Shown in pieces: positions 17,347 to 42,760 of a DNA stretch of 64,000 nucleotides. The notes beneath the pieces were generated by a model. It did no database searches. It saw only the letters and a program-made list of their open reading frames with translations, and was not told the DNA's origin. The stretch is from Octopus vulgaris (taxonomy: Eukaryota): contig OX597821.1 of assembly GCA_951406725.2 (NCBI GenBank), positions 66,836,001-66,900,000 on the forward strand. Direction: 5' to 3'. A program made the position numbers and the translations under genes. Position 1 is the stretch's first letter, and each line of letters begins with the position of its first letter.

Positions 17347-17998
17347 TGTTGATATCTACCGCCCCTCTGCCGTTACTGCGGTTGTTATCTAGAATTATTT
17401 GGTGACGTGCTGAATCATAAACAATCTACCATGTTCTTCGATGGTGCTACTAGCACAATGTCCACGGTAGAGAAACCATGCGTGTATGTTTACGAAGCAT
17501 TTTCCTCATAAGTGTTCACAATAGTCTCTAAACTGAATATATATATATATATATATTACTTCAAAAGCAAGCGGCTAAATATGGAGAATATTACAGTGGT
17601 TATAGTTTATTTTCAAACATGTATCAATGAAACTGAAGATATGAAAGGTTGAACGTTTTAACTATAGGAGGTATTTATATGATTCAGTCTTACCGTTATA
17701 CATTGTCGAGGAAGGAAAACGAAATTGCCGATTAGCTGAAAATCTCTGTATATTATAGTAATTCCAGCACTTTCATCTTGGTAATGTTTCCCCACAGAAA
17801 GCAATTGATATTTTTGTGTTACCTTTACATTCACACCTATTTTCTTCCTCTGATCAACTGCAATTTTTTTAAAGTAATCTCTGAATTGGAAAATAAATAA
17901 AACACTAAACTGCGTTGTTTTATTGCTTTCAAATCTCTCAGTCTCATTGTTGAAGTGTCTTCGAAATAACCTTGGTTAACGGTCACCGCTCTCATATA

Positions 17999-19631
17999 CA
18001 GTTGCGGCCAAAATGTTAAGAACGGCATTGTTTTCGTTAGAAAAGTAGGTATACGTTTTTATCAAAGTTGTTTTATATTTTATAATTTTCACGGACAATA
18101 AATACGATATTAATTATTATTGTCTGAGATTTTGGTGTAATTTGAGAGGATAATACAAAAGTTATGGATGATTTAGTGATTTACTGCAAAACCCATGGCG
18201 GCCAAAATGATCAGAACAGTTGAAAAAAATAACAAAATAATCAAAAATGACAGAGAATACTGGAATTATTTGATATTTAGTGTGAAGCCCTTTAGCTTCA
18301 ATCACACTTTGACATCTTCGACTGCATGAGGAAATTAAATTTTCAATTTCTTGCTGGGTGATATTCCATTCTTCCCGAAGGGCATTCCATAATTGCTCGG
18401 TTGTTTTAGGATTTCTGGCTTTCGAACGTTCTCCTAGAATATTCCACACATTTTCAATAGGATTGAGATCTGGGCTTTGAGCAGGCCAATCCATAACAAT
18501 AATCTTTTCAGCCTTAAAAATGTTCATGACCACCTTAGCCTTGTGACATGGAGCATTGTCCTGCATGAATATGGGTGGTCGCTTAGTTGAATTTCTCAGC
18601 ACAGGCAGGACATGATCTTTTACAAGTTGTTTATAAACTCCTGCATTTACCTTTCCATGTAATCGCACCAAAGGGCCCACACCATCTCCAGATATCATCC
18701 CCCTAGACCATGACACTTCCTTCCTCCACCGAATTTAACACTAGTCTTAAGGCATTTAGGCGACAATTTTTCACCTACTTTTCGACGAACGTACCTTTTC
18801 CCATCTAAGCCAAATAACATTAATTTAAATTCATCACGGAAATGCACCGTTTGCCATTTTTCTTGAGACCACAACACATGTTCGGTTGCAAAGGTAAGAC
18901 GACACTTTTTATTCTTGGAGCTGATCAGTGGCTTCACTGCAGGTGCTCTTGCTTGTAGGTCATGTTCAACTAAACGACGAGACACAGTTTTTCGAGATAA
19001 AGTTTTCTTCAGTACAATGCTCATTTCCCCCAGAAACAGCAGCAGCAGTTTTAAATCTGTCCTTTTTAACCAACTTTACCATAGCACGATCTTCTCTCTT
19101 GGTCGTTTTTCTTGGCCTATCTGTAGACTTTCTTGCTTCACATGAACCACAATCATCGAAGACCTTAGGAATACCGTGAACAACACTTTTTGAGTTGTTA
19201 ACAATCTTTGCAATAGACCCAATACTTAAATTATCCTTCTTTCGAAGCTTAATAATCTGCTGACGAATTGGTAACGGAGTAAGTGGCATCATATTAACAA
19301 AGTACACTGCAGATATTCTTACTAATGTTTAGTAAAAAAACCGTCAGGTACACAAATTCAAAACATTACAGTTCACCGGTTAAATATACTAAAACACGGA
19401 GTAAAAGCAACCGTTCTGATCATTTTGGCCCCCATGGGTTTGGCGGTAAATCCCTAAATCATCCATAACTTTTGTATTATCCTCTCAAATTACACCAAAA
19501 TCTCAGACAATAACAATTAATATTGTATTTATTGTCTGTGAAAATTATTGAAACTAAAACAACTTTGATAAAAACTTATATCTACTTTTCTGACGAAAAC
19601 AATGTCGTTCGGAACATTTTGGCCGCAACTG
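17999..19631 (-). mobile_element. Tc1-family DNA transposon, IR-DR type, 1633 bp
   Basis: TA-flanked ~220-bp TIRs (CAGTTGCGGCCAAAATGTT...), each with inner and outer GGCCAAAATGnTnnGAAC direct repeats. Internal DD34E transposase. Confidence 0.95.
18270..19292 (-). pseudogene. Tc1 DD34E transposase, two frameshifts and lost stop
   Basis: Three overlapping ORFs: HTH region with (G)RPRKTT, WQTVHFRDE and VKFGGG, then MQDNAPCH...SPDLNPIENVW with 34 residues between D and E, ending KGLHTKY. Confidence 0.92.
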
Positions 19632-19649
19632 TATATATATATATATATG

Positions 19650-19990
19650 TTACGGAGGTGTACTCGCATAGCAAGTAATTTGATCTGAGATCGTGTGCTG
19701 AAACGAAAACAATTGCAGCGTGGAAGGTGTTTATAAACCATTTAAGAAACACACAAAAGCCGTTCGATTCACTTCAACATTTAAGTTTAATTTGTCAAAA
19801 TATTTTCGTCGCTAAAATCCGCGACCTGTTCACTGACAAAAATCCGTGCTGCATCTCTTAAAATAAAGAGGCCCTCGCAAAAGTGAAGAACTTACTTATT
19901 TTGACAAATTAAACTTAAATGTTGAAGTGAATCGAACGGCTTTTGTGTGTTTCTTAAATGGCTTATAAACACCTTCCACGCTGCAATTGT
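19650..19990 (-). mobile_element. Penelope-like pLTR with ~90-bp inverted duplication
   Basis: 19710-19801 is the near-perfect reverse complement of 19898-19990. Flanked by (TA)n and contains a hammerhead motif. Confidence 0.7.
19791..19840 (-). ncRNA. Minimal type-I hammerhead ribozyme with G3:C8 swapped core
   Basis: TTTGTCA-GTGAACA-G-GTCGC GGATTTTA GCGAC-GAAA-ATAT-TT-TGACAAA: 7-bp stem I, 5-bp stem II, palindromic stem III AATATT. Confidence 0.7.
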
Positions 19991-20100
19991 ATTGTATATA
20001 TATATGTATGTATGTATAATTAGGAAAGGAAACACACAAGTTGATATATATGGAAAAACAGTCAAGATAGAAAATGCTACAATAATTTTATAAAAAACAT

Positions 20101-42554: not shown

Positions 42555-42760
42555 AATTCATTAACACAACGTTTCGGCTGATGTACTCTCCAGCCTTCAT
42601 CAGGTGTCCTGGAGGAACTATGAACCCGGATTCTCATTCCTATGGTATTTTTCCGATGTTATTATTATTATTGTTATTCAGGTCACTGCTTGGAATCGAA
42701 CTCGGAATCTTGGGGTTAGTATCCGCGCTCTTAATCACTATACCATATACACACGAGCAT
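42555..42760 (-). mobile_element. tRNA-headed SINE-like element carrying a hammerhead
   Basis: Minus: A box TGGTATAGTGATT (42733-42745), B box GAGTTCGATTCC (42692-42703), (AAT)n linker, then a hammerhead. Confidence 0.65.
42564..42607 (-). ncRNA. Minimal type-I hammerhead ribozyme, canonical core
   Basis: ACAC-CTGATGA-A-GGCTG GAGAGTACAT CAGCC-GAAA-CG-TT-GTGT. Palindromic stem III (AACGTT), GUU triplet. Confidence 0.8.

What the first reader, a model, noticed from the sequence alone, without database searches (positions are those of the whole stretch)
19791..19840. Natural G3:C8 reversed-pair hammerhead with perfect stems
Seen (minus): TTTGTCA GTGAACA G GTCGC-GGATTTTA-GCGAC GAAA ATAT TT TGACAAA. 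All other core nucleotides (U4, G5, A6, A9, G12, A13, A14, A15.1, U16.1) are canonical while positions 3 and 8 are both swapped. Stem III is a palindrome (AATATT), suggesting dimeric folding. It lies at the inner edge of a ~90-bp inverted duplication. Established: the C3G/G8C double change is a laboratory rescue experiment. Inference: this is a naturally fixed version, and I cannot tell whether it is already catalogued.
Basis: partly seen in the sequence, partly recalled or inferred. Interest (0 to 1): 0.75.

Follow-up and report, generated by a model that had tools for sequence, protein, structure and literature searches.

The report
Jumping-gene ribozyme with swapped core pair
Thousands of copies of a Penelope-like jumping gene in this animal genome carry a hammerhead-shaped RNA motif in which two paired core letters are swapped (G3:C8 instead of C3:G8), a natural version of a laboratory rescue mutant that likely still cuts itself slowly and that the usual search patterns miss.

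Summary
Window 19791-19840 (minus strand) is a minimal type I hammerhead with 7-bp and 5-bp stems, nine canonical core bases, and G3:C8. It is not a single-locus oddity. It lies in the terminal repeat (pLTR) of a Penelope-like retrotransposon (RT plus GIY-YIG, Neptune-type linker), 56 nt upstream of the ORF start. Genome-wide, 6460 of 7079 pattern matches read G3:C8, and no family copy with C3:G8 was found. A sister family (67% identical in an RT segment) has C3:G8 at the homologous site, with compensatory changes in all three stems, so the fold is real and the swap is a natural covariation. The inverted duplication is ordinary Penelope insertion anatomy. Cleavage is not shown: copies span the site intact, 5' ends do not pile up there, and the stem III palindrome is energetically marginal. 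I found natural U3:A8 in print but not natural G3:C8; one key paper (Lunse 2017) was unreadable. This scan had already noted G3:C8 hammerheads in phages and protist elements (unchecked AI notes). Verdict: new variant of a known kind, moderate interest.

The parts
19791..19840 (-). Minimal type I hammerhead motif: stem I 7 bp, G3 (19833) : C8 (19828), extra G at 9a, stem II 5 bp with 8-nt loop, palindromic 2-bp stem III, U17; predicted cut between 19798 and 19797
   Evidence: homology to the sister family's C3:G8 hammerhead
19650..19856 (-). Long arm: 207-nt copy of the 3' end of the pLTR plus the 'tail' (start of the ORF) of a Penelope-like element; carries the hammerhead
   Evidence: 96.6% identical over 207 nt to the 5' pLTR/ORF junction of full-length copy L081
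19650..19741 (-). First ~30 codons of the element's ORF (ATG at 19741), cut off where the insertion meets the target
   Evidence: same reading frame continues into the RT ORF in L082
19857..19857 (-). Extra G at the 5' edge of the long arm, absent from full-length elements; likely copied from the RNA cap or from a tiny first exon (inferred)
   Evidence: G precedes this boundary in 26 of 35 non-intronic copies counted; source has T or C there
19867..19898 (+). 32-nt piece from further inside the same element's ORF, captured at the junction of the two arms
   Evidence: 96.9% identical to L085 and L086
19897..19990 (+). Short inverted arm: second, 5'-truncated copy that starts 5 nt upstream of the predicted cut site and ends at the family's other common 3' end
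   Evidence: 97.9% identical to L081
19630..19649 (.). (TA)n microsatellite target, left side (a TA-rich run also flanks the right side, about 19991-20018)
   Evidence: the same flanks in most of 30 aligned copies

Best explanation
This is the terminal-repeat hammerhead of a Penelope-like retrotransposon family whose source elements fixed a G3:C8 pair in place of C3:G8, and it likely remains a slow self-cleaving ribozyme that would need a partner RNA or the element's own protein to cut. Shown: the motif sits in both pLTRs of full-length RT/GIY-YIG elements, 56 nt upstream of the ORF start; about 91% of pattern-matched copies carry G3:C8; the sister family has C3:G8 at the same site with compensatory changes in stems I, II and III. 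From established chemistry: G8 contributes its 2'-OH while its base pairs with position 3, so a swapped pair keeps the geometry and partly rescues activity. Inferred: selection on source elements keeps the active-site fold; U17 suits this core because C17 would pair with G3 and trap an inactive fold; cleavage is rare or late, so most RNA is reverse-transcribed uncut. The window copy itself is a short insertion: reverse transcription likely started at two internal sites in the ORF start, on opposite strands of a (TA)n target, giving a long and a short inverted arm.
For: Context: L081 has 1.1-kb direct repeats (304-1421, 4581-5682) around an RT ORF, motif in both; GIY-YIG Pfam hit E 1.8e-5 above cut-off. 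Fixation: G3 6861 vs non-G3 218; G3 with non-C8 401; 50 of 61 copies picked without using the 5' half are G3:C8 and 0 are C3:G8; 85 of the first 100 of 1239 matches in the older upstream context are G3:C8 (counted by eye). Covariation: sister family has C3:G8 in 13 of 13 distinct motif hits; 5 of 15 pairs change on both sides, including 3:8. Constraint: 0 of 37 core and stem columns vs 17 of 165 loop and flank columns carry a subfamily-level second allele. Literature passages: C3G/G8C partly restores cleavage in the Anolis Penelope hammerhead, which cleaves only with protein, and uncut RNA is the main template (PMC11167929); G3-C8 is more active with G17 than C17 (PMC3884650, 'data not shown'); extra base at 9a, palindromic stem III and U17 are common in Penelope hammerheads (PMC4209133).
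Against: No cleavage footprint: copy 5' ends are spread over the 11 positions around the site (10 of 100 listed rows at the site vs 3-13 at neighbours, by eye; 6 of 30 by script), and thousands of copies span the site intact. The monomer prefers a G3.U17 extension of stem I; the AAUAUU duplex is only -0.2 kcal/mol. The sister family carries another core change (C at position 9), which may mean the core is under relaxed selection in this clade. About 6% of G3 copies have a non-C8 base, with more G8 than decay alone suggests (about 35 of the first 100 of 401), and one old full-length copy is G3/G8 (L086). Covariation rests on only two lineages; the 7-row alignment was hand-picked. The column count is partly biased by how copies were picked.
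Confidence: 0.62

Rival explanations
1. The motif keeps the hammerhead fold but no longer cuts in vivo; it is kept as a structural element of the 5' leader (protein binding, positioning of internal RT start sites, splicing or translation control), and the 3:8 pair is kept for shape only.
For: No 5'-end pile-up at the site; the sister family has a fixed C9; catalytic mutants do not affect insertion in vitro in the Anolis element (PMC11167929); the motif lies between a splice-acceptor-like sequence and the start codon.
Against: All nine other catalytic-core bases are kept across subfamilies, and eight of them are shared with a sister family 33-45% diverged in protein; a purely structural role would not obviously need them. 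A few insertions show repeated restarts exactly at the predicted cut site (L241, L243/L244).
Confidence: 0.27
2. A neutral relic: the ribozyme died in an ancestor, positions 3 and 8 changed by drift and pair by luck, and the family amplified because cleavage is dispensable.
For: Once both positions change, a Watson-Crick outcome has a fair chance (1 in 3 for the second base, inference); G3/G8 copies exist, including one old full-length copy; transposition does not need cleavage in vitro.
Against: Loop II and flanks changed repeatedly between subfamilies while core and stems did not (0 of 37 vs 17 of 165 columns); G8 copies do not form a clade once the site itself is removed (12 changes for 13 rows, 151 of 500 shuffles as low).
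Confidence: 0.09
3. A chance resemblance inside a hairpin-type (MITE-like) repeat, not a hammerhead homolog.
For: No Rfam hammerhead match; short copies look like inverted-repeat elements.
Against: 0 hits in 150 random 64-kb sequences; position in the pLTR of a Penelope-like element; alignment to a C3:G8 hammerhead at the same site in the sister family.
Confidence: 0.02

Closest known systems
Minimal type I hammerheads in the pLTRs of metazoan Penelope-like elements (Cervera & de la Pena 2014, PMC4209133)
   Same: Position in both pLTRs; type I layout; extra base between 9 and 10.1; G10.1-C11.1; short palindromic stem III; U17 frequent; mostly dispersed short copies, some in inverted pairs.
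   Different: G3:C8. None of the 56 representatives in their Fig. S3 has it (they show C3:G8, U3:A8 and one U3 with G8), but their descriptors were built on the canonical or U3:A8 core and would not have retrieved it.
Natural U3:A8 covariants (Perreault et al. 2011, PMC3088659; Schistosoma Cercyon elements, PMC4209133)
   Same: A natural Watson-Crick exchange at positions 3:8.
   Different: U3:A8 keeps pyrimidine-3/purine-8 and is reachable through a U.G wobble; G3:C8 reverses the polarity and needs an unpaired intermediate (inference).
C3G/G8C laboratory double mutant, including in the Anolis Poseidon (PAc) hammerhead (PMC11167929)
   Same: Same core change; hammerhead near the ORF start; two internal RT start sites giving two 3' ends; both target strands extended; AT-rich targets.
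   Different: Here the change is natural and fixed in thousands of copies; the element has a Neptune/Nematis-type Zn-finger linker and the motif lies wholly upstream of the ATG.
Neptune/Nematis clades of Penelope-like elements (as described in Craig et al. 2021, PMC8557442)
   Same: Single ORF with RT then GIY-YIG, a C-X3-C-xx-C linker motif, pLTRs, inverted 5'-truncated copies, optional tail, (TA)n targets.
   Different: No tree with reference elements was built, so Neptune vs Nematis is open; whether Repbase or Dfam list this family could not be checked.

Membership tests
Hammerhead ribozyme (type I, minimal) | Three-way junction with stems I and II and an A15.1-U16.1 pair | tested here: met
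   7-bp and 5-bp stems; compensatory changes against the sister family in all three stems
Hammerhead ribozyme (type I, minimal) | U4, G5, A6, A9, G12, A13, A14, A15.1, U16.1 and a non-G at 17 | tested here: met
   mean non-majority share 0.027 over the 11 core columns
Hammerhead ribozyme (type I, minimal) | Watson-Crick pair between positions 3 and 8 | tested here: met
   G3:C8 in 6460 of 7079 matches
Hammerhead ribozyme, canonical consensus | C at 3 and G at 8 (CUGANGA); match to an Rfam hammerhead model | tested here: not met
   G3 and C8; no Rfam hammerhead match. Filed as a variant, not as a canonical member
Hammerhead ribozyme (type I, minimal) | Self-cleavage 3' of position 17 | not testable with these tools
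   Indirect genomic test negative; only contigs available for RNA-like runs
Penelope minimal hammerheads | Cleaves as a dimer through a palindromic stem III | tested here: inconclusive
   Palindrome present; duplex -0.2 kcal/mol and not the predicted cofold
Penelope-like element (EN+) | One ORF with RT and C-terminal GIY-YIG endonuclease | tested here: met
   1025-aa open frame in L083 with RT motifs read from the sequence; Pfam GIY-YIG hit at 915-1005. Pfam gave no RT hit
Penelope-like element (EN+) | Direct pLTRs carrying a hammerhead; inverted truncated copies; optional tail | tested here: met
Neptune/Nematis clades | CX2-5CxxC linker between RT and endonuclease | tested here: met
   C-X3-C-xx-C motif read from the translation against the definition in PMC8557442
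Neptune clade | Placement in an RT tree with reference elements | not tested
   No reference sequences fetched
Non-LTR retrozyme | Head-to-tail tandem monomers each with a hammerhead | tested here: not met
   Short copies seen are single or head-to-head, not tandem arrays

The most novel reading that the evidence does not exclude
A whole animal retrotransposon family runs on a deliberately weakened ribozyme: G3:C8 with a co-adapted U17 was selected so that most transcripts stay uncut for reverse transcription, the element's protein switches cleavage on, and the sister family reached the same end with C9. Non-canonical-core hammerheads would then be a large, uncounted class hidden from CUGANGA-based searches.
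Probability: 0.3. Interest if true: 0.68.

Novelty: new variant of a known kind. Interest (0 to 1): 0.42.

Why it matters
The C3-G8 pair was established by a double-mutant rescue. A natural G3:C8 fixed in about 6,500 matches, beside a sister family with C3:G8 at the same site, is the evolutionary version of that experiment and shows the pair, not the base identity, is what is kept. It also bears on an open question: what Penelope hammerheads do, given that they cleave poorly and are not needed for insertion in vitro. Two young sister families with intact long ORFs and different non-canonical cores give a ready test system. Practically, descriptors and Rfam models built on the canonical core miss this family entirely.

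Tried and rejected
1) Rfam scans: no hammerhead match. 2) Genomic footprint of cleavage: the first pattern gave 62 matches, about 14 of 20 inspected starting at the site, but its control (273 matches) was swamped by a subfamily with a 2-nt insertion; the better-designed test (301 matches, 100 listed; 30 scripted) showed no pile-up. 3) 'G3/G8 is a surviving intermediate subfamily': a first tree clustered G8 copies only because the site itself was in the alignment; without columns 3 and 8 the clustering vanished, and only 3 of the first 100 old-context matches are G8. G8 copies are enriched in the older upstream context (12 of 21 vs 5 of 44); the excess is unexplained. 4) A spliced first exon: no longer shared upstream exon or matching donor was found, and no such joint in contigs. 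6) Expression: no RNA holder listed; contigs cannot show RNA ends. Runs labelled as four organisms hold the family; positions 3 and 8 showed no difference row there, but 22 rows were hidden, so inconclusive. 7) A second hammerhead-like string on the plus strand near 19685-19710 does not fold (z +1.29). 8) One search used a mis-registered structure string; one search is the corrected count. 9) Literature: nine completed full-text searches plus an empty one found no natural G3:C8; Lunse et al. 2017 and a 2012 review were not held.

Full report
Observation. They form a type I hammerhead layout: stem I of 7 Watson-Crick pairs, then positions 3-9 reading GUGAACA, one unpaired G, stem II of 5 pairs opening with G10.1-C11.1, GAAA, a 2-bp stem III in a palindrome, and U17 (numbering; G3 = 19833, C8 = 19828, predicted cut 19798/19797). 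The fold is more stable than 199 of 200 shuffles. A descriptor that accepts any Watson-Crick 3:8 pair found 2 hits in the window and none in 150 random sequences of the same length and composition. Rfam finds no hammerhead here.

What it belongs to. The window is part of a 2.8-Gb genome. The 336 nt around the motif had 1905 candidates, of which 40 were scored, all at about 89% identity or more. Thirty aligned copies share an element of about 205 nt that ends sharply at one of two 3' positions and usually sits in (TA)n. One copy held a coding fragment, which led to full-length elements. L081 has 1.1-kb direct repeats around an RT ORF, and the motif lies near the 3' end of both repeats. L083 has a 1025-aa open frame ending in a GIY-YIG domain (Pfam E 1.8e-5; Pfam gave no RT hit, the RT motifs are read from the sequence), with a C-X3-C-xx-C linker that Craig et al. 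assign to the Neptune and Nematis clades (PMC8557442, passages). The predicted cut site is 56 nt upstream of the ORF's ATG. So this is the pLTR hammerhead of a Penelope-like element.

The window copy. It consists of a 207-nt long arm (19650-19856, minus; 96.6% to L081), a 32-nt captured ORF piece (19867-19898, plus) and a 94-nt inverted arm (19897-19990, plus). Inverted 5'-truncated copies and an optional tail are standard for these elements. In the Anolis element the protein nicks and extends both target strands from two internal start sites in the ORF's beginning (PMC11167929, main text read). That explains the two 3' ends and the head-to-head arms seen here (inference). In several insertions the two arms come from different subfamilies (L058, L130, L165), which suggests two template RNAs per event.

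Fixation of the swap. With positions 3, 7 and 8 left free in a 20-nt pattern, 6861 matches have G3 and 218 do not; 401 of the G3 matches have a base other than C at 8. So 6460 of 7079 (91%) are G3:C8. These are motif matches, not insertions, since many insertions hold two. A pattern for C3..G8 gave 3 matches against 3 in its control, and none is a family member. Among 61 copies picked by their 3' flank or ORF, 50 are G3:C8 and none is C3:G8. In the older upstream context (1239 matches), 85 of the first 100 are G3:C8 (counted by eye), so the swap predates the oldest subfamily I could see (copies down to about 85% identity).

Covariation. A protein search found a sister family, 67% identical over a 170-aa RT segment and 55% over 815 aligned residues, with many long open frames. 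At the matching place in its pLTR it has a hammerhead with C3:G8, in 13 of 13 distinct hits. Against the focal family, 5 of 15 pairs change on both sides: two in stem I, one in stem II, one in stem III, and 3:8 itself. The alignment has 7 hand-picked rows, three chosen for being unpaired at 3:8, and represents two lineages, so its shuffle statistics are not probabilities; the pattern of changes is still what a conserved fold predicts. Within the focal family, 0 of 37 core and stem columns but 17 of 165 loop and flank columns carry a second allele at 15% or more (partly biased by how copies were picked). The sister family has its own oddity, C instead of A at position 9.

Does it cut? Not shown. 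For: any hammerhead chemist would predict partial activity, since the double mutant partly restores cleavage, including in a Penelope hammerhead. U17 is a sensible partner, because G3-C8 was reported to be more active with G17 than with C17 (PMC3884650, discussion read, stated as data not shown), consistent with a G3-C17 trap. Against: the monomer's best fold adds a G3.U17 wobble, the palindromic duplex is worth only -0.2 kcal/mol, and two copies are predicted to swap stem II instead. Copy 5' ends do not pile up at the cut site: 10 of 100 listed rows by eye, 3-13 at neighbouring positions (301 matches in all), and 6 of 30 by script. A few insertions do restart repeatedly at the site. The Anolis study also saw no RNA ends at the site and cleavage only with protein, so this negative does not separate slow from dead. 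Instead, many copies begin at one upstream boundary with an extra G (26 of 35), which fits uncut, capped or spliced RNA copied to its end (inference). G8 copies are more common than simple decay suggests (about 35 of the first 100 of 401 non-C8 matches, against about 11 C3 in the first 100 of 218 non-G3; by eye), but do not form a clade.

Comparison with print. Cervera and de la Pena describe exactly this kind of minimal hammerhead, with natural U3:A8 in Schistosoma; none of their 56 representatives has G3:C8 (PMC4209133: first two of four text parts and two of three supplement parts read; figures in the PDF are garbled). Perreault et al. report natural U3:A8 only (PMC3088659, section read; its supplementary alignments not opened). 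I also saw passages of PMC6765202, PMC6155905, PMC10085705, PMC2377424 and PMC2920678, and the first part of a 2026 preprint on retrozymes; none mentions natural G3:C8. Ten searches found none (listed under Tried and rejected). Lunse et al. 2017, the largest survey of Penelope hammerhead variants, was not readable and may contain it. Earlier notes of this scan report G3:C8 in phages and in protist Penelope-like elements (AI notes, not verified; my narrow viral scan found 0 of 120); none covers this genome or family.

Verdict. A real, naturally fixed core variant of a known ribozyme in a known class of element. Its value is the scale, the sister-family covariation and the testability; activity is unproven. 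Novelty: new variant of a known kind. Interest 0.42.

Noticed in passing
L211:1131-1180 (+) and 12 other hits: The sister Penelope-like family, young and with many 1310-aa open frames, has a hammerhead with canonical C3:G8 but a fixed C at position 9 instead of A; older copies have C17, younger ones U17.
   Followed up: partly
window 42564-42607 (-): A canonical minimal hammerhead (C3:G8, extra A at 9a, CG palindrome) of a different repeat family; a similar one in L009, and two further canonical families in L004/L006/L042 and L221.
   Followed up: no
window 17994-19636: A Tc1/mariner-like DNA transposon with 229-nt terminal inverted repeats and broken transposase frames on the minus strand; the Penelope copy landed in the TA run right beside its end.
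   Followed up: no
window 19857; L081:1195-1222: Short copies often start with an extra G at a boundary where full-length elements have a branch-point and splice-acceptor-like sequence: either a cap-derived G at a transcription start or a tiny spliced first exon.
   Followed up: partly
L058, L130, L165: The two inverted arms of one insertion belong to different subfamilies (different loop II), suggesting two RNA templates per insertion event.
   Followed up: no
G000, 401 matches; L086:1225-1292: An unexplained excess of G at position 8 (unpaired G3/G8, and a few U3.G8) in older copies, without forming a clade.
   Followed up: yes
L246-L265: An old subfamily with a 2-nt insertion in the 3' strand of stem I keeps a 5-bp stem I and mostly G3:C8.
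   Followed up: partly
L215:1270-1330 (-) (= L122): A lone, degenerate hammerhead-like motif sharing the focal family's stem I start and stem II opening but reading U3..G8, in unrelated flanks; possibly a relic of a third family.
   Followed up: partly
L085:584-3443 (-): An LTR-retrotransposon-like stretch (protease, RT, integrase-like frames) interrupts one older full-length Penelope copy.
   Followed up: no
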